Positions 980 to 64,000 of a stretch of DNA of 64,000 nucleotides are shown here, piece by piece. How positions within the stretch are numbered: the first letter of the stretch is position 1; each line of letters starts with the position of its first letter. The notes under the pieces are model-generated. The model did not search any database. It was not told the DNA's origin and saw only the letters and a program-made list of their open reading frames with translations. The DNA comes from the human T2T-CHM13v2.0 reference genome, Homo sapiens. A program made the translations under genes and the position numbers. Where the stretch lies: the NCBI RefSeq assembly GCF_009914755.1, contig NC_060940.1, one strand, 5' to 3'.

Positions 980-1590
980 TTATCCAAATGGACAATTGGT
1001 AACAAAAGATGGGAGTTCATAAAGGATTTTCCAAATATTTGTTGAGTCATGCCACTGAAGCATTTACTCCAGCATTTCCTGGTCACTCCTCCCTGTCATG
1101 TGTGATGAAGGCTGCCCTGTTACTCTTCTCTTGGAGGTTTTCTAGTGCATAAATAACTTGCTGAAGCTCTCCCCACATTCTCTGTGGACTGAATTCTCTC
1201 CTATGTAGACTCTCTGAAGTCCCCTCAAGTGGGAAACAAAGTTTTGCCCATACTTCACGTTTCTACTGTTTGTCCCAGTAGAAATCCACCCAAACAAAAA
1301 GCATACTTTTGTTTCTGAATCTTTTCTACACCTGTCACTTTTTCTTGTGTGGGTTCACTGGGGACCGAGATGAGGGCACTGTTTGAAACATCAACCAAAT
1401 TTGCTACATGCCTAGGTTTCCTTCATGTATTAATCCTCCACTGGGCAATGGTAGTTGGGCTGTACTGAAATGCCTTCTTCAGTCGAGCGTCTGTAAGGCT
1501 TTTCTCCTGTACGATTCACCCAAATCTGATAATGTGTGTACTTTGCCTAAAGCAGTTCGCCTAGTCTGAATCCCTCCTGTGAAAGGAATT
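980..1590 (-). pseudogene. Highly degenerate C2H2 zinc-finger array (relic terminal exon of a dead ZNF gene)
   Basis: Minus-strand reading gives an exact TGEKPY linker (1493-1510), FRQSTHIIR just upstream (about 1520-1550), QRVYIGE (about 1197-1217), ECGESFS (about 1160-1180) and GKSFMNSHL (about 1006-1033), broken by stops and frameshifts. Confidence 0.75.
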
Positions 1591-37454: not shown

Positions 37455-40400
37455 TCAAAAAAAAAAAAAAAAAAGAAAGAAAAGATTAAAAAGGTCATTT
37501 GCAGCTGGGCACAGTGGCTCATGCCTGTAATCTCAGCACTTTGGGAGGCTGAGGTGGGTGGGTCACCTGAGGTCAGGAGTTTGAGCCAGCCTGGCCAACA
37601 TAGTGAAACCCCATTTCTACCAAAAATACAAAAATTAGCCAGGTGTGGTGGTGCACACCTATAGTCCAGCTACTTGGGAGGCTGAGGCAGGAGACTTGCT
37701 TGAACCCGGGAGGTGGAGGTTGCAGTGAACTAAGGTTGCAGTGAGCTGAGATTGCACAACTGCACTTCAGCCTGGGTGACAAGAGCAAGACTCTGTCTCC
37801 AAAAATAAAACAAAACAAAACAAAAAGGTCATTTGCCTTTTGATTCTAGCCAAAGAGGGTCCCTTGCTACTCTCTTATTGAAATCATCCCATCCAAAAGT
37901 CCCAGACATCAGATGTCTTACCAGCATTTGGGTATGCTAGTCTGGTCAGTGGATAATGGAATGTCCTAAGATTCCTTATGCAAATTTAAGACCCCAGGAA
38001 AGATCATCCATCCATAAAGTATGTTCTCTGCCTCAAGATCTAGTCTTGAAGCCCTGCAGTTCCTAAAATTCAGCAATCAGTTCAGCACACAATTAATTAC
38101 TCATCTTTCAGGAACTCACATGTTGGGATCAGAATGCCAATTTGTGATTCTGCACATTCCTAGAATTGCCAAAGGGATCCCCACCTGTTACCACAATTCA
38201 TTTACTATTTTCCCAGACAGAGAAGCTAGGTTAATATAAGAAAGTTGCATGACAACTACATTACCATAGAAAAGGGAATCAATAGGTTTTAGAACTAGTT
38301 CAAAAGGGGCTTTGGCTTTGTGTCCCCATAATTTTGAAACACATGCCTTATACATAGTAGATACTCAATAAGTGTTTAGCAAATATAATTAATAAGCTTC
38401 ATGAGTCCTCCTTTATCTTGCTAAGAACTAAATTTGTCAAATGGACCGTCTTCATGTTTGCCACTTTGGGGTCATCCCATCCCTTGGACAGCATTGAACA
38501 AACAATGATAAATGTTCCCTTTTCCACATTACCATAATTCCTTCCAAAGACATCTAATCATACTGTCCTGTCATGAGTTTGTTTTTCCAATAGCAGATCA
38601 AAGCCATTTTGCCAGTTCCTCATACAGCAATACTCAAATACGTCTCCAGAAGTAGACAACTGTTAACATTATCTTGGCGAATTTATTAAAGTCCAGAGTC
38701 TTGCAGGCTCAACACTGGTTTTGTTTTGTTTTGTTTTGTTTTGTTTGAGACAGAGCCTTGCTCGGTTGCCCAGGCTGGAGTGCAGTGGCGATCTCAGCTC
38801 ACTGCAACCTCTGTCTCCTGGGTTCAAGCAATTCTTGTGCCTCAGCCTCCTGAGTATCTGGGATTACAGGTGTATGCCACCATGCCAGGCCAATTTTTTT
38901 TTTTTTTTTTGGTGGAGACAGGGTTTCACCATGTTGGCTAGCTGGTCTCAAACCCCTGGTCTCAAGCGATTCACCCTCCTCAGCCTCCCAAAATGCTGGG
39001 ATTACAGGTGTGAGTCATCGCACATGGCCAGGCTCAACATTTTCATTGATCAGTACACTCAGATTAGGTCAAGTTCTCAAGAAGTAGGTTCACAATGACC
39101 AAGTTCCTAAAGCTGTTATATAAACCAAAATGCCAGCTGATTACGTTATGAGAACAGTACCAAGAGACTGAACAGTTGTATCCTCCAGTCAATTCATTTA
39201 AGTTGTGAAATAACTTGGGAGGAAATAGGAAGAAAATGGACAGGTATTCCTGAGACATATGAGTGCTGTAGAGCCTCCATATGGAAAAAATTGGACATTT
39301 TGTAACTAACACAGAGTTCTGGGTGTGGTAAGACACAGGGAATTAGAGGAAGAAGAACAAGCTGACTGGCTATGGTGAGGAAATGAATACATCACAGGGA
39401 TCGCATATAACTTCGTCAACACACATACGCTTATGTTCCATTCTCAATGGTGTTCATGAAACAAGGTCAAAATTTGGGAGGAAAAGAAGGAAATATAAAG
39501 CAAGCTCCTTGTTATTGAGGGTTTGGAGTCCTATTTCTAGGTGTCCAGGAAAAAAATATGTTTGGTGTCTTGTTCAGTTGGAAATTCAGGAAATGACAGA
39601 CAAAACCACCACCAAGGGCCGGGCACAATGGCTTACGCCTGTAATCCCAGCACTTTGGGAGAATGAGGTAGGCAGATCACTTGAGGTCAGGAGTTCAAGA
39701 CCAGCCTGGCCAACATGAGACTCTGTCTAAAAAACAAACAAACAAACAAACAACAACAAAACACTAAAACCACCAAGACCTATGAAAGACTCACCAACCT
39801 TAGTAAAATAGAAATGAAAAGCATTTGAATATGCTCATCTGCTCACTGGATTTAAGTGAGTTTGAGAGCCCATCGCATAGAGCCCTTCTCAGAGTCTGTC
39901 TGGATCCCATACCTTTCCGTTTAAGGTATCAAAGGCTGCCTGAATACCTCAAATGAGCAAATTCTGAAGCTGCCAATGAAGACAGTCAATCCTTTTCCAT
40001 TCTTCTCAGCCTTCAGGCTCAAGTCCAGGAAAGATTAGGAAAGATTAGAATCAAGGAACCGGGAAGAAATAGAAGTTGAAAAGTGACTTTGGCTTGCTGC
40101 ATATACACTTTAGTATGTGAGCTCTGAATTAGAGACTATGGTAGGACGCAGTGGCTCACACACCCGTAATCCCAGCACTTTGGGAGCCCGAGGAGGGAGG
40201 ATCGCTTGAACCCAGGAGTTTAACACCAGCCTGGGCAACATACTGAGATCCCGTCTCTACTAGAAATTTAAAAATTAGCTGAGTGTAGTGGTGCTTGCCT
40301 ATATCCCCAGCTACTCAGGATGGTGAGGCAGGAGGAACGTTTGAGCCCAGGAGTTCAAGACTACAGCGAACCGTGATTCCATCACAACACTCCAGCCTGG

Positions 40401-42838: not shown

Positions 42839-43378
42839 TGTTACTAGTGGAGGGTGTCCAGGTTCTTGGCGTTTGGAACGAAGAACTGGACAAAACACAC
42901 AAACAAGGCAAGGAAAAAAATGAAGCAACGAAAGCACAGATTTATTGAAAACAAAAGTACACTCCACAAGGTGGCAGCCCGCAGAGCATAGGGGCTCAAC
43001 AGGCATGTGCCAGAATTTTTCTGGGGTTTAAACACCCTCTACAGGTTTCCTATTGGTCACTTGGTGTACACCCTATGTAAATGAAGTAGTGGCCCGTAAT
43101 CGGCCCTAGGTTCCCTTAGGTTGCTTTGTGCAACCAGAGGCTGAAGTGAAGTTACAAAGGTTACACGCTATGCAAGCATCTGATACTTTCAAATTTTTGT
43201 CTGCCACGCAGAAGAGGTGATGGAGTTTGTAAAGGGAGTAGCCTCCAGTCCTTTCAGTGGGTCCTTTCCTTACTTAGGTGGGGAAAGGGAAAGTTGGGGT
43301 TTTCCTTTTGATTTAGTTCTAGGAAGTCAGCGTGAATCAGTTAGGTTTCCTGCCTCCAGACCCTATTCCTCTGCCTCA
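42839..43378 (-). mobile_element. MER51-family ERV1 solo LTR
   Basis: Minus strand begins TGAGGCAG.GGAATAGGGTCTGGAGGCAGG and ends ..CCCTCCACTAGTAACA, with internal AATAAA. 4-bp TSD GTAA at 42835-42838 and 43379-43382. Confidence 0.8.
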
Positions 43379-43899
43379 GTAACAGTTATTTTCTCTAGGG
43401 AGGGAGTGTAATTTCAGAGGCAAAGTATGAATATATTTTGTTAATCATTTGTATTTATTTATTATTTATTTATTTTGAGACAATCTCGCTCAGCCGCCCA
43501 GGCTGGAGTGCAGTGGCAATTACCTCTCACTGCAGCATCGAACTCCTGGACTCAAGTGATCCTCCCGCCTCGGCCTCCCAAAATGCTGGGATTACTGGCG
43601 TGGAGACTTCAGTTTTAAGTGAGAACGTTTTGCAGTACTTACTTAATATTAAGAAATAAAAACAACTTAGAGTGGGGGGAAAAAAAGCCACTGGATTAGA
43701 TACGAGTTCTAGTCAACGAAAGTCACTTAAACTCTGTTTTGGCTTCCTCGTCTGGAAGATGAAAATGGTAATATAACTGACTGAGTAGGGTTGCTGTAAG
43801 TATGAGTTAGTGTGTAAATGTTTACAATTACGCAGGGCACACAGCAAGCGCCACGTTTTCTATCAGGGCTACTCTCACCTAACGCGTAAAACAGGATGG

Positions 43900-44420
43900 C
43901 ATGCCCAGCGGGATCCGGGCCCTGGGTTCTCAGGCATTGTGATTGGTCTCAGCATATGACGCAAGGCGGGTTTCATTAATGAAATTGCTGTCAATTAGCG
44001 AAGGGCGGAAACCAGGCGAAGAGGGCGGTCCTTTAGAACCACACTCGCGCGACTGGCTCCTCTCTTTACAGGCTTAGCTACTGCGCATGCCTCTGGTCCT
44101 CTTGAGGTCCCGGCGTGCCCCGCAACAGCTTCCGGCGTGCTCCGCAACAGCTTCCGGCGTGACGCAGTAGAAAAGGTGGCGTGGCTGGCGATTCGTGTTC
44201 GTGAGGGCCTTTTCTGGTGAGGCGGGGCTTAAGGGTTGTGGCTCTGCTCTCTGTCCTGAGACTTTCAGATTGCACTCTGGGTTCCTGGACGCAAAAACTC
44301 GGAGTGGCTGCGTGATGCAGAGTGAACTGGGTCCTCTGGGGACGCGTGGGGAACGTGGCAGTCCGGAGTGCCGGCTTTGTTGCCCTTCGGAGCTCCAGTC
44401 CGTTCAGGTTCCCCAGTGAG
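43900..44420 (+). promoter_or_regulatory. CpG-rich housekeeping-type promoter with a first-exon donor
   Basis: High CpG density in non-repeat DNA; NRF1-like TGCGCATGC (44082-44090); two ETS/GABPA CTTCCGG motifs in a 22-bp tandem repeat (44110-44161); CRE half-site TGACG (44160); donor CTG|GTGAGG at 44217. Confidence 0.75.
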
Positions 44421-44924
44421 GCCTCCTTTGAAGGGCTGGGTGCCTTTTGCCCTTCACGCTAAGAAAACACTCGTTTCCTAAAGCTCGATTGCGCCCTTGT
44501 GCTGAGCGGTGGGGACACGAAGACAGCACAGAAACGCTGTTTACTCTCAGCGAGCCCCCAGACTGTTGGAGTGGATAAACCCACCAGAAACAAATTACAG
44601 CGTTAGGCGGGTTAAGATGGAGCACCCTGAGAGATGTTACAGACAGGACCGGAGAGTTCAGAGGATTAGGATGCTTCAAGAAGATGGGGGTAGTGGCGTC
44701 ATCAATCCTCATCCTGGGGTTTTTGTCTTTGATGGTGCACTCCTTGAGGACATGAAATTTTTCTTCCACATTTCCGATACCTAGGCTCAGGTGCCCTTCC
44801 ATGGTTGGGAGGGATAGAGACCAGCTGTCTCTCGTGTTTATTATCTATGGAAAGGATGAATTAGGTCTTGGGGACTTCAGGAGGGAAAATTTTGGTGAGC
44901 AAAGGCACTAATATGTCCCTAGAC

Positions 44925-52509: not shown

Positions 52510-53210
52510 TTACAGATTATTTTGTCACCGAGGTAATGAGCATAGTATCCAATAGGTAGTTTTCCAGTCCTCACCCTCCTCCCACTCTCTACCCTCTAGT
52601 AGGCCCCAGTGTCTGCTGTTCCCCTCTTTGTATCCATGTGTACTTCTAAGCTCCCGGTTACAAGTGAGAACACGTGTTATTTGGGTTTCTCTTCCATTGT
52701 TAATTCGCTTAAAATAATGGCCTCCAGCTCCATCCATGTTGGTGCAAAGGACATGATTTAATTCTTTTTTATGGTGGTGTAGTATCCCATGGTGTATATG
52801 TATGACATTTTGTTTATCTACTTCACCATTGATGGGCATCTAGATTGATTCCATGTCTTTGCTATTGTGAATAGCGCTACAATGAACATATGTGTGCGTG
52901 TGTCTTTTTGGTAGAACGATTATTCCTTTGGCTGTATGCCCAGTAATGGGATTGCTGGGTTGAATGGTAGCTCTAAGTTCTTTGAGAAATCTCCAAACTG
53001 ATTTCCACAGTGGCTGAACTAATGTACATTCCCACCAGCAGTGTATAAGCATTCCCTTTTCTCTGCATCCTCACCAGCATCTGTCATTTTTTGACATTTT
53101 AGTAATAGCCATTCTGACTGCTTTGAGATGGTATCTCATGGGGATTTTGATTTGCATTTCTCTTATGATTAGTGATGAGTATTTTTTCACGTGCTTCTTG
53201 GCCACATGAA
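52510..53210 (-). mobile_element. 5'-truncated L1PA (older primate subfamily), 3' end
   Basis: ORF 52840-53052 ([25 protein letters not shown]) plus L1 3'UTR in antisense. Confidence 0.9.
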
Positions 53211-54640
53211 TATCTGACTGCTCTTCTAATTCTGTTCTGCTCAGCTGCACTTGCCCCGCTCCACGTTCAAGTGTTTAGCTCTGGCTTTCAGGAATCTCTG
53301 TTACCATACCTCTGCTCTCTGAGCCCATACAGGGATTTCTGAAGGGATGAGGTAGGGTGTCAGTGATAGGGTTTTTTTTTCTCTGGGATTATGGGGGGAG
53401 TTGCCAAGCTCCTATTAGAGCCAATGAAGCCCCCTTCCTCAGGGACTTTCCCAAGAGAAGAGCCAGAGCTCATACTCAGGACCATTCAGACCATAAGGCC
53501 TTATAGAGGAACCCAGTGACTCCAAGAAATGGTGAGACACAAAAGAGTCTCAGGCTGGAAGGGGAAGAATCCAGGGATGAGAGCTCATCAGTGCCTGTGA
53601 CATCATAGACATGACCGTACAGTTCTGTCATGACCAGAATTGGGGGAAAGAAGCAGGTGAAATGGTGGTGCAGCTGCCAGACTGAGACAGCTCAGTTCCT
53701 TATCTAAGCTTTGTCATGTCCTCCAGTCCTCCCTTCAGAAAGGCCCATATTCCATGATAGCCCCTAGAAGGGTCATGTCTTGGTGTTTTACACAGAACTC
53801 TTTGGGTTTCTCCATTAACTTAGCTACTGTGCCCAGCAGCCACCAGAGGCCCCAGAAGAAGAAACCAGCAGGGGATCTGGCTGCCTGGGTTCCTCGGGGG
53901 TGGTCTCACCATCAGGGGTGGGTGAGACCACCACAGCCACACTGTGAAAGTTTCAGAGTTTTCACTACTTACAGATCCTCAAGATAGGCAGGGTGACCAG
54001 AGAGAGGCAGACAGCAGTCCTCAGTTCCAGGTCTTATGTAGTGACAGCAGCTGCACACTTGTGGGAGAGGACTTCTGTTAAAGGCTTATTTGGGGGTAGG
54101 ATGTCCTAATTTCATGGAATTACTTTCCACTGAGTCCTTCAACCACTTCTAGCACCAAAGGTAGTTGAGCAGTTTGGCATGAGGCTGGAGTTAAAACAGG
54201 GCTCTGCAGAGCAACTTCTTGTCTATCTTGGTCAGCCCTTGCCAGGCAACAATCAACTGTGGTTTCTTCATTACTCCTCAGACACTTGGGACATTCATGG
54301 TGACCTATTGGCACCCAAGGAAGAGAACCTGATTTTAATTTGGACTGATAAGCAAGTTTTCTGAACAGGTTTATAGGGATTAGTTTAGTCTGGACAGAGT
54401 GAGCCGGAATCAAAAGATACTGTTAATACCAGAGGACTAGAAGATCCCATGTGGAGATGTCAGGTGGCTTAGCCATTGAGAAAGAATGACAGTAGATCTG
54501 AAATGGTCCAGAGCCCAGATATTCAACAAAGGCTAAGAGCCAAGGTGAGAGGGTAAAGGGAAGGTGTGAACGAACGGGTGAAGCCCCACTGTGTGCTTGG
54601 CCAGCCCCACAGAGCTCTCTGCTGGTGCTTGGGGGTATGA

Positions 54641-55200
<560 letters not shown>

Positions 55201-56207
55201 TGACCAGGCTGGTCTCGAACTCCTGACCCCAGGTGATCTGCCTGCCTTGGCCTCCCAAAGTGGTGGGATTACAGGCTTGAGCCATCACGCCTAGCTCTTT
55301 CTTTCTTTTTAAATGGGTCTCTTTTTGCCTTTTCTACCTTTAGACTGTAAAAACTGAGTGAAAGTGAAATGGAAGTAATGAAAGGTTTTGGAATTGATTT
55401 GACCTATGTTCAAAATCTAGCTCCTCTCCCTTGGGGCAGTGACCAGGTCTTCCATATCTCTCTTTGCCTGGCACATTATAAACATACCTGGGCAAAATAA
55501 ATATCAGTTTTATCATACTGTATTTAATGAACAAATGAACTCACTGACCGACTGAAGAATATGGTGTTGGGAGAGTTGTAGATGTAGCCATCAGTAATGC
55601 CTGTTGGAGGTTGTTTGGCGCTTGTTTATCCTGCCTGGTAAAACTCAAGACATATCCAGTAATAGCTGGCATATGTGAAGCTTTTACAGTGTGGTTGGTT
55701 ACATGTAAATGGCTTCCACACATGAAAGCACTTAACCCTTTAAACCCCTCTGAGAGGTAGACATTGTCATCACTGACTGTAAGATGAAGAGGCTGGGCTC
55801 AGAAAGGTTAAGTACTTGTGTACTTACTTACCTACTTACGTAAGTGTCCAAAGACACACAGCAATAGGTTATAACAAAATTAGAAGTTAAACCCGGTTTG
55901 TCTCACTCCAAAGCCCTCACTACAGCACCATACTAACACTTTTTGGTGGAATCTGCAGAGCTGGAGGTTCATTCGTTGTCTGATACTGACCTTAGGCCCC
56001 AGTGTCCTCTCTCTCTAAGAAAGGGGTTCATGTCTCTCAAACAGGCATAAGCACACAAAAGCACTTGGAAAACTGCCCCAGACTGACAAATCAGAATCTC
56101 TGGTGGTGGCATCTAGGAATCCTCATTTAAGAGAAATTACAGATGAGGGGAAAATGTCCAGCTCTTTCATTTAGTCACTGTGCAAGTCACCTAACCTAGG
56201 AGGGCAG

Positions 56208-56620
56208 GTATGAATTGGGGCTACCAGGAAACCAAGACTTTACTTACAAATCTCCATAAATCTTAAATCTATGAAAAACTCCAGACTTGCTCCTGGAATG
56301 GCCAACTGTAAGGGTAGTGGCTGAGCTGCTGCAGGAGTACAGCTTCCTCCAGATGCCACACAGGTCAACACCAAGTTCACAGCTTTCAGGCTGACTACGA
56401 TGGGGAATGGTGGGGCCGCTTGCTAGAGTCCCATATTCTCTGTAAGTGAAGAACACTCAGTCCTTCTCTTGGTCTCTACCCAGAAACCAAGTTACGGTTG
56501 AGTCTATTTCCAGGACTGTGAGGAGCCAAGGATTCTGCCTGTGATGAAGTCAGCTATGAAATGGGTGCGTTTTTGTGCCAGGATCCCAGAAGTTCTGGGC
56601 TGTTTCCAGACTGAACTCAC
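56208..56620 (+). pseudogene. Decayed Myb/SANT-like (trihelix) exon 1 of a dead ZSCAN32-like paralogue
   Basis: cag|GT ATG AAT TGG GGC TAC CAG GAA ACC AAG ACT TTA CTT gives (G)MNWGYQETKTLLTNLHKS*IYEKLQTCSWNGQL*, versus ZSCAN32 (G)[34 protein letters not shown]. After frameshifts: VVAELLQEYSFLQMP, NTKF, GRLLESHIL. Confidence 0.88.
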
Positions 56621-57185
56621 AAGAGAAGCAGCAGAGAGGTAGCCAGAGGAAAGGTGAATGAGGCGCCCAGCTCTTGTTTGGCTCTGACCGTCTGACAGCC
56701 ACTGTCAGCTGAGAGGAGCCATGGTAGAACTATGGACCAGTGACGGCCAGTAGGCTCTGCCCAACTTCTCTGGGTTGTAGCGAGACGATTGATCCAGTCT
56801 ACAGGGACTGGTTAGGAATCTTTGGAAAAAAGGAATAGTGTCAATTGAAAAAAAATTATATCAACTAGTTAAAATGTTTCAGTGAGGGAAGGAGGTATGG
56901 AAACAGTGTAGAGAGCCCACTGTGTAACTTACCAGGGAATGACCTGGTTTTTTAATGGGCCTCTGAAGGGCTGCACCAATCCTGGAGGGTAGTATTAGAC
57001 ATAAGAGGAAATCTGTAGACTTGGGGTCTTGCCTTTTGTACAACATACTTCCAATACATTCTCAAGTGGTTAGTGTTGTATTGGGCTTGTTAAGCAATGG
57101 AAAGTCAAATAGTGAGGGCCTGTGGTCAATTGACTGAGAGAAACAGCCCTGAACTGTCATTCTGAGTGTACCCTCCTGGTGGAAG

Positions 57186-57600
57186 GTATGCACTAGGGTG
57201 CTGAAGAAACAAAGACCTTCCTCACCATCCTTGATAAACAGCAGTTTAGTGAAAATACCTAACCTGGTACTGATAATGCAAGGTGCCCAAAACAATAGCT
57301 GTGCAGCCTGAGGAGCTGGGTTATTTGCACATCCAGAGCTGTGTCACAGCAAGTTGAAGTGTCTCCAGATGAACGTCACAAGGAGAGCAGCAGCCATGTG
57401 CCAAAGCCCTGTCCCCTCCATGAAGAAATGGACCAGAGGACATTGAGGAGCCAACCTGGCTGGACTCCTAGCCCCCAAGACCCAGCCCAAAAGCTAAGTG
57501 GTAGTAAACATTCCCTCCTAGAAGAGTTACATAAAAGACTTAGTAAGAAGAGAGCCCTCTGCACCCTGGGAAACCTGGATTATAATTCTGTCTTTACTGT
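57186..57600 (+). pseudogene. Decayed Myb/SANT-like exon 2 of the same dead ZSCAN32-like paralogue
   Basis: aag|GT ATG CAC TAG GGT GCT GAA GAA ACA AAG ACC TTC CTC ACC ATC CTT gives (G)MH*GAEETKTFLTILDKQQFSE. Then TIAVQPEELGYLH, ELCHSKLKCLQMN and HKESSSHVPKPCPLHEEMD (cf. [20 protein letters not shown]). The 3' boundary is approximate. Confidence 0.88.
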
Positions 57601-63471: not shown

Positions 63472-63948
63472 CAAGTCTGTTTGGGAACAGCACTGGCAGG
63501 TCTAGTTTCCTGACTTCCTGGCCAGGATTCCTGAAGTCCTTTTCATCCCTGTCTGCACCATCCACAGTGCCATCTTCTACCTCCGTGGGTTCCCCATTCT
63601 GGTGATTCAGCTCTCCAGCCTCAATATCACTTCCTTCTTGGCCAGGAACAGCATCGCTTGCCATAGGAGGTGCAGAGGCCCAGGAGCCTGAAAGAGCATT
63701 CATTTCCTCATAAAAGATACAAGGCTCAGGCACACGGCCTCTCCTCACTTTGCGGTAACTCAACTGTAGGCTTTTGAACTTGGTGCGACACTGTTCTGGG
63801 GTCCGCAGAAAACCCTGCTCCCAGAGTCCTTCCGCCATGGCCCTGTAGATCTGGCTGTTCTGCTGACAGGTCTGGAGTTTTCCATAAAATTGAGAACTAC
63901 TAAGAATAGCCAGGAGCGTCTTGGTCTCTTCATAGCCCCAGGGCACAC
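63472..63948 (-). CDS. ZSCAN32: ZSCAN32 penultimate coding exon, Myb/SANT-like (Myb_DNA-bind_4) domain
   Basis: 477-nt phase 1-1 exon (CAG|GT GTG CCC TGG ... CTT G|GTAAG), [32 protein letters not shown]; splices in frame to 62724. Confidence 0.92.
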
Positions 63949-64000
63949 CTGTTGCTGGGGGACAAAGAATAGGTCAATTAGATCTGTCAGTTAGATCATG

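What the first reader, a model, noticed from the sequence alone, without database searches (positions are those of the whole stretch)
56208..57600. Fossil ZSCAN32-like gene: two tandem decayed Myb/SANT exons facing ZSCAN32 tail-to-tail
Seen: two separate + strand segments about 1 kb apart each begin AG|GT-ATG-xAx-T(G/A)G-GG, the same phase-1 acceptor and reading as the live ZSCAN32 exon (63948). Each aligns across the whole domain (W.G.EETKT.L, KLQTC, TKF/SKL, PC..EEM), with stops and frameshifts. Established: tandem Myb/SANT-like exons are the hallmark of the small ZSCAN20/ZSCAN29/ZSCAN32/ZKSCAN2 group, and this trihelix domain family also includes Harbinger-transposon DNA-binding proteins. 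Inference: this is a non-processed, long-dead further member of the group, made by inverted duplication. I do not recall it being annotated, and it may be intact in other mammals.
Basis: partly seen in the sequence, partly recalled or inferred. Interest (0 to 1): 0.88.

Follow-up and report, generated by a model that had tools for sequence, protein, structure and literature searches.

The report
Dead Myb exon pair beside ZSCAN32
Two badly decayed copies of a DNA-binding-domain exon, left by a long-extinct relative of the neighbouring zinc-finger gene ZSCAN32, lie unannotated on human chromosome 16; this is an ordinary kind of genomic fossil, though an unusually old one.

Summary
A DNA profile of the seven live human ZSCAN-type Myb/SANT domain exons matches + strand 56206-56443 (E 5e-27) and 57184-57432 (E 9e-25), and the next unrelated hit has E 0.36. 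Both copies carry stops and frameshifts. They differ from live genes about equally at all three codon positions, are single-copy, and have no RefSeq gene or listed repeat mask. The 978-nt spacing argues against a processed copy.

The best trees put the copies with the ZSCAN32 lineage, but AU tests reject no alternative. No SCAN exon and no same-strand zinc-finger exon is present, although a power test says such relics would be found. Inverted duplication is not shown.

One new finding: an equally decayed zinc-finger array of the same family lies on the minus strand at 1137-1569. A single old inversion that split one dead gene would explain both relics. This is inferred, not tested.

Decay at sites invariant in live genes (about 26%) points to death probably before placental mammals radiated. 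This is a new member of a known kind, of modest interest.

The parts
56206..56443 (+). Fossil Myb/SANT domain copy 1. It starts AG|GT ATG AAT TGG and has 2 in-frame TAA and several 1-2-nt indels. The end of the domain is not alignable.
   Evidence: nhmmer E 5.3e-27, model 1-241 of 253. tblastn E 1e-8 with the ZSCAN32 exon. Whole-genome protein search E 3.8e-4. Disablements. 56-64% nt identity to live exons.
57184..57432 (+). Fossil Myb/SANT domain copy 2. It starts AG|GT ATG CAC TAG, covers the full domain, and has TAG, TGA and TAA plus three 1-nt deletions.
   Evidence: nhmmer E 9.2e-25, model 1-252 of 253. tblastn E 4.3e-8 with ZSCAN20 exon b. Disablements. 55-61% nt identity to live exons and 54% to copy 1.
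56444..57183 (+). Spacer between the two copies. It would hold the decayed tail of pseudo-exon 1 and a former intron. No homology is demonstrable.
   Evidence: A profile of the exon tail and donor from 6 live exons gave no hit here at E<=100. No repeat mask of 100 nt or more. The domain starts are 978 nt apart, against about 470-490 nt expected in an mRNA-derived copy.
1137..1569 (-). Decayed C2H2 zinc-finger array of the same gene family, about 55 kb away on the opposite strand. It may be the missing last exon of the same dead gene (inferred).
   Evidence: nhmmer family ZnF profile E 3.1e-20. Bits against ZnF exons: ZSCAN29 74.7, ZKSCAN2 41.6, ZSCAN32 30.5, ZSCAN20 29.9; 16 other chr16 ZNF exons scored at most 23.9. 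50 of 140 aa identical to ZSCAN29 fingers, with stops and frameshifts. Single copy. Not in the mask list. Decay 0.246, against 0.287 and 0.297 for the Myb copies.
53381..53484 (+). Doubtful candidate relic of the exon that follows the SCAN exon. It lies in the right order and on the right strand.
   Evidence: nhmmer with a two-sequence profile (ZSCAN32 and ZKSCAN2 exon 2) gave E 3.4e-4 and 15.8 bits. This was one of about 30 searches in the same call, and the alignment shows no clear reading frame.
63472..63954 (-). Live ZSCAN32 Myb/SANT exon, used as the comparison partner.
   Evidence: RefSeq exon. PF13837 at 69.7 bits.

Best explanation
The two segments are the neutrally decaying remains of two consecutive Myb/SANT-like (Pfam Myb_DNA-bind_4) coding exons. 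They belonged to an extinct, intron-containing paralogue in the SCAN-Myb/SANT-C2H2 zinc-finger group (ZSCAN20, ZSCAN29, ZSCAN32, ZKSCAN2) that lay next to ZSCAN32. They encode nothing now and nothing suggests a present function.

Shown: homology, disablement, loss of coding constraint, single-copy status and lack of RefSeq annotation.

Inferred: the two pieces were exons of one gene, because they have equal decay, tandem order and the same strand. The gene died very long ago, probably before the radiation of placental mammals. The rest of the gene was deleted or moved away.
For: - Homology is shown by tblastn, a DNA profile and a whole-genome protein search.
- The copies are ZSCAN-type rather than another Myb/SANT type. 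The best ZSCAN queries give E 1e-8 and 4e-8, while MSANTD7 gives 0.002 and 1.4, and the chr4 Myb ORFs give at best E 4.5.
- Both copies start at the family's conserved AGGT.
- Stops and frameshifts are present in both.
- Differences from the live majority are spread evenly over codon positions: 0.34/0.29/0.38 and 0.32/0.32/0.46. Live exons show 0.05-0.19 at positions 1-2 and 0.24-0.37 at position 3.
- Of the columns invariant in all 7 live exons, 25 of 98 (copy 1) and 28 of 104 (copy 2) have changed. The known pseudogene SCAND2P has changed at 15 of 107. The near-equal decay of the two copies fits one death event.
- End branches in the DNA tree are 0.46 and 0.55 substitutions per site, against 0.08-0.20 for live exons.
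- The 1651-nt region matches only itself in the genome. No mask of 100 nt or more and no RefSeq feature lies between 55337 and 57995.
- The domain starts are 978 nt apart. Spliced family proteins have them 157-163 aa apart, about 470-490 nt, so an intron-sized spacer remains.
Against: - The curated Pfam model does not recover the copies. They are not among the 23 matches, and 0 of 7 stop-free pieces hit.
- Copy 2 is absent from the whole-genome protein search.
- The exon tails and donors are not detectable, so 'exon' rests on the domain part and the AGGT alone.
- There is no SCAN exon and no same-strand zinc-finger exon, although the power test says they should be visible. A complete gene at this spot is therefore inferred, not seen.
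- The two copies share only 8 fossil-only bases. By my rough arithmetic, chance would give about that many.
- The dating rests on neutral rates that I recalled and on sites assumed to have been constrained until death.
Confidence: 0.8

Rival explanations
1. The relics come from a partial duplication only. A segment holding just the two Myb exons of the ancestral two-Myb ZSCAN32 was copied in inverted orientation downstream of the gene. It was never a complete gene and decayed from the start.
For: - The best trees place the copies with the ZSCAN32 lineage: copy 1 at 98/99, and both at 96/97.
- The monotreme orthologues of ZSCAN32 have two Myb domains, so a two-exon source existed.
- No SCAN or same-strand zinc-finger relic is present despite adequate power.
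- Decay is roughly equal at all codon positions.
Against: - AU tests do not favour ZSCAN32 over ZKSCAN2, ZSCAN29, ZSCAN20 or platypus P0035 (p 0.16-0.58).
- The 76-row tree puts copy 2 with P0035 domain 2 instead (88/88).
- No flanking inverted similarity to the ZSCAN32 gene survives outside repeats.
- It leaves the family-type zinc-finger relic at 1137-1569, which has similar decay, without an explanation.
Confidence: 0.2
2. The relics are the remains of a Harbinger-type transposon Myb-like gene or of another interspersed repeat, not of a host zinc-finger gene.
For: This domain family includes Harbinger-derived genes. ZSCAN20 itself has been named as a putative Harbinger-Myb derivative (PMC9392472, passages read).
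Against: - The region is single copy in the genome and carries no repeat mask of 100 nt or more.
- Similarity is far stronger to ZSCAN-type exons than to MSANTD7 or the chr4 Myb ORFs.
- Both copies begin at the family's AGGT boundary and lie in tandem, as in the live genes.
- In rooted trees they fall inside the ZSCAN group, with MSANTD7 as outgroup.
Confidence: 0.02
3. The segments survive because they now serve a non-coding role, for instance a regulatory element or an exon of an unannotated transcript near the ZSCAN32 3' end.
For: They are still recognisable after a very long time. RefSeq lists enhancers elsewhere in the interval, at 43322-44521.
Against: - The observed identity of about 55-64% is what neutral decay of this depth would leave, so no excess conservation needs explaining.
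- No RefSeq transcript or functional element overlaps them.
- Constraint across species and expression could not be examined with these tools.
Confidence: 0.05
4. The similarity arose by chance.
For: None beyond the failure of the Pfam model on short pieces.
Against: The DNA profile gives E 5e-27 and 9e-25 over the full domain length, twice, on the same strand, and starting at the same model position. Seven independent protein queries hit both places.
Confidence: 0.005

Closest known systems
ZSCAN32 Myb/SANT exon (window 63472-63954, minus strand) and the paired Myb exons of ZSCAN29, ZKSCAN2 and ZSCAN20
   Same: They share the same domain and the same conserved AGGT at the domain start. The tandem two-copy layout matches ZSCAN29, ZKSCAN2 and ZSCAN20.
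   Different: The relics have stops, frameshifts and no coding constraint. Their starts are 978 nt apart, against 1964-2901 nt in the live genes. They have no SCAN or zinc-finger exon on their strand. The two relic copies are only 54% alike, whereas the a/b exons of a live gene are 79-86% alike.
SCAND2P, an annotated transcribed pseudogene on chr15 that carries a decayed ZSCAN20-like Myb domain (chr15:82392194-82392394)
   Same: It is another dead member of the same family with a recognisable Myb/SANT relic.
   Different: SCAND2P is annotated and much younger. It has one TGA, 15 of 107 invariant sites changed and an end branch of 0.26, and it groups firmly with ZSCAN20 (98/96). The relics here have 25 of 98 and 28 of 104 sites changed and end branches of 0.46-0.55, with no firm sister.
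Platypus protein P0035, named 'zinc finger and SCAN domain-containing protein 29-like isoform X2' (755 aa)
   Same: It is an intact member that falls outside the four named clades in the zinc-finger tree. It has two Myb domains that group with the ZSCAN32 lineage. Its precomputed contig has the same length (63,506,031) as that of the platypus ZSCAN32 orthologue. Copy 2 is sister to its second domain in one tree (88/88), and both share PKPC before the final EEMD.
   Different: Orthology is not shown. The grouping disappears in the 33-row tree, and the AU test is neutral (p 0.46). The zinc-finger relic joined to P0035 is almost rejected (p-AU 0.06). No genomic context is available. Only 120 of 379 hits were listed, so relatives of P0035 in other species may have been missed.
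Unitary or unprocessed pseudogene relics in general
   Same: A former coding sequence kept in place, with introns, and decaying neutrally.
   Different: This one is unusually deep in decay and only fragments are left. Its parts may have been separated by a rearrangement.

Membership tests
Pfam Myb_DNA-bind_4 (PF13837) domain | A match to the curated model above its cut-off of 27 bits | tested here: not met
   The whole-genome search with PF13837 listed 23 matches, neither relic among them, and scored only 30 candidates. 0 of 7 stop-free pieces hit at E<=10, while the live ZSCAN32 exon scored 69.7 bits. This is expected for a frame-broken relic. It bears on 'is a domain', not on 'is derived from one'.
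Pfam Myb_DNA-bind_4 (PF13837) domain | Homology to bona fide members over the whole domain length | tested here: met
   The DNA profile of 7 live domains gives E 5.3e-27 (1-241 of 253) and 9.2e-25 (1-252 of 253). My own protein HMM of the same 7 domains scores the frame-corrected, X-masked translations at 69.0 and 65.2 bits. That second test is not independent, because the frame correction used the DNA profile.
SCAN-Myb/SANT-C2H2 zinc-finger group (ZSCAN20, ZSCAN29, ZSCAN32, ZKSCAN2) | The Myb domain is of the ZSCAN type rather than the MSANTD or other types | tested here: met
   ZSCAN exon queries give E 1e-8 to 7.6e-4, while MSANTD7 gives 0.002 and 1.4. In trees rooted on MSANTD7 the relics fall inside the ZSCAN group.
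SCAN-Myb/SANT-C2H2 zinc-finger group (ZSCAN20, ZSCAN29, ZSCAN32, ZKSCAN2) | Two tandem Myb exons on one strand, each domain starting at the conserved AG|GT | tested here: met
   Caveat: human ZSCAN32 itself has only one Myb exon.
SCAN-Myb/SANT-C2H2 zinc-finger group (ZSCAN20, ZSCAN29, ZSCAN32, ZKSCAN2) | A SCAN-box exon upstream on the same strand | tested here: not met
   tblastn and nhmmer give nothing better than E 0.1 (39939-39973) or E 0.10-0.42 (55653-55844), and neither is convincing on inspection. Simulated decayed SCAN exons were found in 30 of 32 trials.
SCAN-Myb/SANT-C2H2 zinc-finger group (ZSCAN20, ZSCAN29, ZSCAN32, ZKSCAN2) | A C2H2 zinc-finger exon downstream on the same strand | tested here: not met
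   There is no + strand hit in 57.6-61.1 kb. Simulated decayed ZnF exons were found in 32 of 32 trials. A family-type ZnF relic does exist, but on the minus strand at 1137-1569.
SCAN-Myb/SANT-C2H2 zinc-finger group (ZSCAN20, ZSCAN29, ZSCAN32, ZKSCAN2) | An exon tail ending in the PVLFQ-like motif and a G|GTAAG donor | tested here: not met
   A tail profile from 6 live exons finds only the live ZSCAN32 exon (E 8.5e-9). Nothing appears near 566xx or 576xx at E<=100. By-eye resemblances seen are unsupported.
ZSCAN32 lineage specifically | A supported clade with ZSCAN32 orthologues to the exclusion of the other family members | tested here: inconclusive
   For: 93/97, 98/99 for copy 1, and 96/97 for both copies. 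Against: copy 2 goes with platypus P0035 domain 2; the DNA tree is unresolved; AU tests reject none of ZKSCAN2, ZSCAN29, ZSCAN20 or P0035 (p 0.16-0.58).
Processed (retrotransposed) pseudogene | No intron between parts that are adjacent in the mRNA | tested here: not met
   The domain starts are 978 nt apart, against 157-163 aa (about 470-490 nt) in spliced family proteins. No repeat of 100 nt or more accounts for the surplus. A poly(A) tail was not looked for.
Interspersed repeat or Harbinger element | Multiple copies in the genome, or a repeat mask | tested here: not met
   The 1651-nt region matches only itself. It is not in the list of masks of 100 nt or more. Repeat family names were not available.

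The most novel reading that the evidence does not exclude
The Myb pair (56206-57432, +) and the orphan zinc-finger array (1137-1569, -) are the two halves of one fifth SCAN-Myb-zinc-finger gene. That gene once lay on the minus strand in tandem with ZSCAN32, in the order ZnF, Myb2, Myb1 when read on the + strand.

A single ancient inversion, with breakpoints near 2 kb and near 58 kb of this window, cut it between its last Myb exon and its zinc-finger exon and killed it. The inverted segment now carries OR2C1.

This would explain four things: the orientation of the Myb pair, the missing zinc-finger exon after copy 2, the zinc-finger relic that has no Myb or SCAN exon on its own strand, and the similar decay of all three pieces (0.25-0.30).

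A living counterpart may persist in monotremes; platypus P0035 is the candidate. Two results count against this. The zinc-finger relic joined to P0035 has p-AU 0.06. The SCAN exon is missing under this model as well.
Probability: 0.2. Interest if true: 0.45.

Novelty: new member of a known kind. Interest (0 to 1): 0.3.

Why it matters
The finding adds an unannotated and very old dead member to a small transcription-factor family whose Myb/SANT domain is thought to come from Harbinger transposons (PMC9392472, passages read). With the zinc-finger relic next to ZNF75A, it gives a concrete and testable picture of gene loss, and possibly an inversion, in the chr16p13.3 zinc-finger cluster. It also provides a marker for dating rearrangements around OR2C1. 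It has no evident functional or medical weight. Its main practical value is as a pseudogene annotation and as an example of how far profile searches at the DNA level can reach.

Tried and rejected
- PF13837 across the whole genome and on 7 stop-free pieces did not recover the relics.
- tblastn and nhmmer searches for SCAN, exon 2-4 and zinc-finger relics on the + strand gave only weak hits. 55653-55844 (E 0.10-0.42) looked like chance on inspection. 39939-39973 gave E 0.1-0.37 with three SCAN queries, but the same spot was also hit by an unrelated query. 53381-53484 (E 3.4e-4) is kept as doubtful.
- The exon tail and donor profile was negative at both relics. I therefore dropped my by-eye readings of tail motifs. 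The home-made frameshift aligner over-aligns outside the domain, and I used it only as a first look.
- A sensitive blastn of the whole ZSCAN32 gene against 36-61 kb found only repeats and the Myb domain. A 682-nt inverted match at 73.6% lies in masked repeats and was discounted.
- No relic of a first Myb exon was found in the human ZSCAN32 gene. A tblastn hit of ZKSCAN2 exon b on ZSCAN32 exon 2 (E 5.7e-4) and a + strand hit at chr16:3422742-3422840 (E 0.017) were not confirmed by the DNA profile.
- Fine placement by trees failed. No AU test reached p<0.05, and the trees disagree on copy 2.
- The shared GT-ATG start of the two relics is not evidence of special kinship. They share 8 fossil-only bases, about the chance number by my rough arithmetic.

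Rows chosen by hand:
- One search used 31 of the 137 proteins then held.
- Searches used 33 of 211 proteins.
- One search used 33 of 76 rows.
- Domain instances covering fewer than 60 model positions were dropped.

Literature searches found no paper describing these relics. Only listings and abstracts were seen, except PMC9392472, of which I read passages. No supplements were opened. GENCODE and Ensembl pseudogene tracks, Dfam names and other vertebrate genomes were not available. 'Unannotated' therefore means RefSeq RS_2025_08 only.

Protein searches left out candidates known from samples alone: 416, 145 and 1969. They listed at most 120 hits each.
Full report
WHAT IS THERE. In frame, copy 1 reads like the start of a ZSCAN-type Myb/SANT domain until a TAA, and the reading can be followed through shifts of frame. 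Copy 2 does the same, with a TAG where the family has the Trp of VHWGY.

The live ZSCAN32 exon has the same AGGT. However, RefSeq places its acceptor 6 nt further upstream, at 63954. In the longer first Myb exons of ZSCAN29, ZKSCAN2 and ZSCAN20 the AGGT is internal coding sequence. It is therefore a family landmark, not proof of a splice site.

IS IT MORE THAN CHANCE. Yes.
- I took the open frames around the seven live ZSCAN-type Myb domains found by a PF13837 search of the reference. All seven hit both places by tblastn within the window: copy 1 at E 1.0e-8 to 1.3e-6 and copy 2 at E 4.3e-8 to 7.6e-4.
- A DNA profile of the seven live domain parts gave 56206-56443 at E 5.3e-27 and 57184-57432 at E 9.2e-25. 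It covered model positions 1-241 and 1-252 of 253. The next hit outside ZSCAN32 had E 0.36 and was Alu-like.
- A six-frame search of the whole genome with the ZSCAN32 exon peptide lists copy 1 at E 3.8e-4, but not copy 2.
- Against: the curated Pfam model recovered neither copy. Neither is among the 23 matches, where only 30 candidates were scored. 0 of 7 stop-free pieces hit at E<=10, where the live exon scored 69.7 bits. That is what frame breaks every 20-40 codons would produce.

IT IS DEAD AND UNCONSTRAINED.
- Aligned to the profile, copy 1 has two in-frame TAA, three 1-nt deletions, a 2-nt deletion and a 2-nt insertion, and it loses the last 12 positions. Copy 2 has TAG, TGA and TAA plus three 1-nt deletions.
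- The copies differ from the majority of the live exons about equally at all three codon positions: 0.34/0.29/0.38 and 0.32/0.32/0.46. Live exons differ by 0.05-0.19 at positions 1-2 and 0.24-0.37 at position 3.
- Nucleotide identity to live exons is 55-64%, and 54% between the two copies. Live exons are 65-86% alike.

IT IS NOT A REPEAT AND NOT A PROCESSED COPY.
- The 1651-nt region matches only itself in the genome.
- The list of masked stretches of 100 nt or more has nothing between 55337 and 57995.
- RefSeq has no gene, transcript or element between MTRNR2L4 and ZSCAN32.
- In spliced family proteins the two domains start 157-163 residues apart, about 470-490 nt. Here they start 978 nt apart, so an intron-sized spacer remains.
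- The spacer and the expected exon tails show no detectable homology. A profile of the tail and donor from six live exons found only the live ZSCAN32 exon.

WHAT ELSE OF THE GENE IS LEFT.
- tblastn with full ZSCAN32 and ZKSCAN2, and with the SCAN and zinc-finger exons of ZSCAN20 and ZSCAN29, found no convincing + strand relic.
- DNA profiles of the SCAN exon, exons 2-4 and the zinc-finger exon found none either. The one exception is a doubtful exon-2 hit at 53381-53484 (E 3.4e-4, from a two-sequence profile, among about 30 searches).
- Lack of power does not explain these misses. I mutated left-out family exons by 30% substitutions and 1.2% indels and appended them to the window. They were recovered at E<=1e-3 in 30 of 32 (SCAN), 32 of 32 (zinc finger) and 28 of 32 (Myb) trials.
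- Outside repeats, the Myb domain is the only similarity between the 19.4-kb ZSCAN32 gene and window 36-61 kb.

AN UNEXPECTED THIRD RELIC. The zinc-finger profile did hit the minus strand at 1137-1569, at the ZNF75A end of the window (E 3.1e-20).
- It is a decayed C2H2 array with recognisable linkers, several stops and frameshifts. 50 of 140 aligned residues are identical to ZSCAN29 fingers.
- It is single copy and is not in the mask list.
- It scores 74.7, 41.6, 30.5 and 29.9 bits against the zinc-finger exons of ZSCAN29, ZKSCAN2, ZSCAN32 and ZSCAN20. It scores at most 23.9 bits against those of 16 other chr16 zinc-finger genes, with ZNF75A at 17.6. It therefore belongs to the same small family.
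- ZSCAN29 being the best match may only reflect its very short branch (end branch 0).
- At sites invariant in four live genes it has changed at 43 of 175 (0.246). The Myb copies have changed at 0.287 and 0.297 by the same criterion. This is a similar depth of decay.

WHOSE RELATIVE.
- The DNA tree of the ten human sequences excludes the copies from the ZSCAN20/SCAND2P clade (98/96) but resolves nothing else. Their end branches are 0.46 and 0.55 substitutions per site, against 0.08-0.20 for live exons and 0.26 for SCAND2P.
- Three protein word searches supplied named proteins from other mammals.
- In domain trees, copy 1 falls in the placental ZSCAN32 clade (93/97; 98/99).
- Copy 2 is sister to the second domain of platypus P0035 in the 76-row tree (88/88). 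In the 33-row tree it sits with ZSCAN32 instead, with 96/97 for both copies together.
- AU tests reject none of the alternatives. Either or both copies can be placed with ZKSCAN2, ZSCAN29, ZSCAN20, P0035 or each other at p 0.16-0.58.
- For the zinc-finger relic no placement is rejected at 0.05. Placement with P0035 is the worst, at p 0.06.
- 'ZSCAN32-like' is therefore the best guess, not a result.

SIDE RESULTS ON THE FAMILY.
- The monotreme proteins named 'ZSCAN29-like X1' are ZSCAN32 orthologues by their zinc fingers (99/99), and they have two Myb domains. All 7 placental ZSCAN32 proteins examined have one.
- The human gene keeps no relic of a first Myb exon.
- Platypus P0035 is a distinct intact member. 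Its precomputed contig length equals that of the platypus ZSCAN32 orthologue.

AGE.
- Of the columns invariant in all seven live exons, 25 of 98 and 28 of 104 have changed in the two copies.
- By my Jukes-Cantor arithmetic, that is about 0.31-0.33 substitutions per site since constraint was lost.
- Using neutral rates for the human lineage that I recall (about 1-2.2e-9 per site per year; no call supports these), this gives a date of the order of 150-270 million years. That is before the radiation of placentals. The estimate is rough.
- The near-equal decay of the two copies, and of the zinc-finger relic, fits a single death.

HOW IT MOST LIKELY CAME ABOUT.
- Shown: two dead Myb/SANT pseudo-exons and one dead family-type zinc-finger array lie in the ZNF75A-ZSCAN32 interval.
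- Inferred, with confidence about 0.8: the Myb pair is the remnant of an extinct, intron-containing family member beside ZSCAN32.
- Rival, about 0.2: only the two Myb exons were ever copied, in inverted orientation.
- My most novel reading, about 0.2: one inversion from about 2 kb to about 58 kb split a minus-strand gene that lay in tandem with ZSCAN32. This would explain the orientation, the missing zinc-finger exon after copy 2 and the orphan zinc-finger array. It does not explain the missing SCAN exon, and the trees give it no support.

NOVELTY. Seven literature searches found no description of these relics. One paper names ZSCAN20 as a putative Harbinger-Myb derivative (PMC9392472, passages read). 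RefSeq does not annotate the relics. I could not see GENCODE, Dfam or other genomes. This is a new, very old member of a known kind, the unprocessed pseudogene relic. I score interest at 0.3.

Noticed in passing
window 1137-1569, minus strand: A decayed C2H2 zinc-finger array of the ZSCAN29/ZKSCAN2/ZSCAN32/ZSCAN20 type lies in the 3' part of ZNF75A, just left of the first OR2C1 exon. It is single copy, absent from the RefSeq list and not in the repeat-mask list.
   Followed up: yes
G000 chr4:59898537-59898797, 59907684-59907947 and 59916411-59916554, + strand (L009, L004, L017): Three PF13837 matches lie inside the PPAT/PAICS gene pair. Two are in stop-free open frames of 165 and 216 aa (65 and 75 bits). 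The third has one TAA. No Myb/SANT gene is named there in genes.tsv. This may be an unannotated or differently named MSANTD-like gene.
   Followed up: no
chr16:3409001-3428400 (L024, L026), and proteins P0199, P0139, P0131: Human and 7 of 7 examined placental ZSCAN32 proteins have one Myb domain, while the platypus and echidna orthologues have two. The human gene keeps no detectable relic of the lost first Myb exon. Platypus isoform P0131 carries what looks like only the acidic tail of such an exon.
   Followed up: partly
window 63948-63954, minus strand: The RefSeq acceptor of the ZSCAN32 Myb exon is 6 nt upstream of the AG|GT that serves as the acceptor of ZKSCAN2 exon b. The old site is kept as coding sequence (ACA GGT).
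   Followed up: partly
proteins P0140-P0144, P0160, P0163, P0165, P0166: Marsupial and monotreme proteins named ZSCAN20-like or ZSCAN29-like carry three Myb/SANT domains, one more than any human member.
   Followed up: no
L001-L007 (human ZSCAN29, ZKSCAN2, ZSCAN20): The two Myb exons of one gene are more alike (79-86% nt) than exons of different genes (65-77%). Yet in ZKSCAN2 and ZSCAN29 the two domains already form separate clades that each include marsupials. This looks like old duplication with some later homogenisation.
   Followed up: partly
window 52550-53215 and chr16:3413170-3413851 (ZSCAN32 intron, outside the window): There is a 682-nt inverted similarity at 73.6%. It lies within masked repeats on the window side, so these are probably two copies of one interspersed repeat rather than a trace of a duplication.
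   Followed up: partly
window 53381-53484, + strand: A weak DNA-profile hit (E 3.4e-4) to the exon that follows the SCAN exon in ZSCAN32 and ZKSCAN2 lies 2.8 kb upstream of Myb copy 1 on the same strand.
   Followed up: partly
G000 chr15:82392194-82392394 (L013), inside SCAND2P: The annotated pseudogene SCAND2P holds a ZSCAN20-like Myb relic with one TGA. I used it as a younger comparison.
   Followed up: yes
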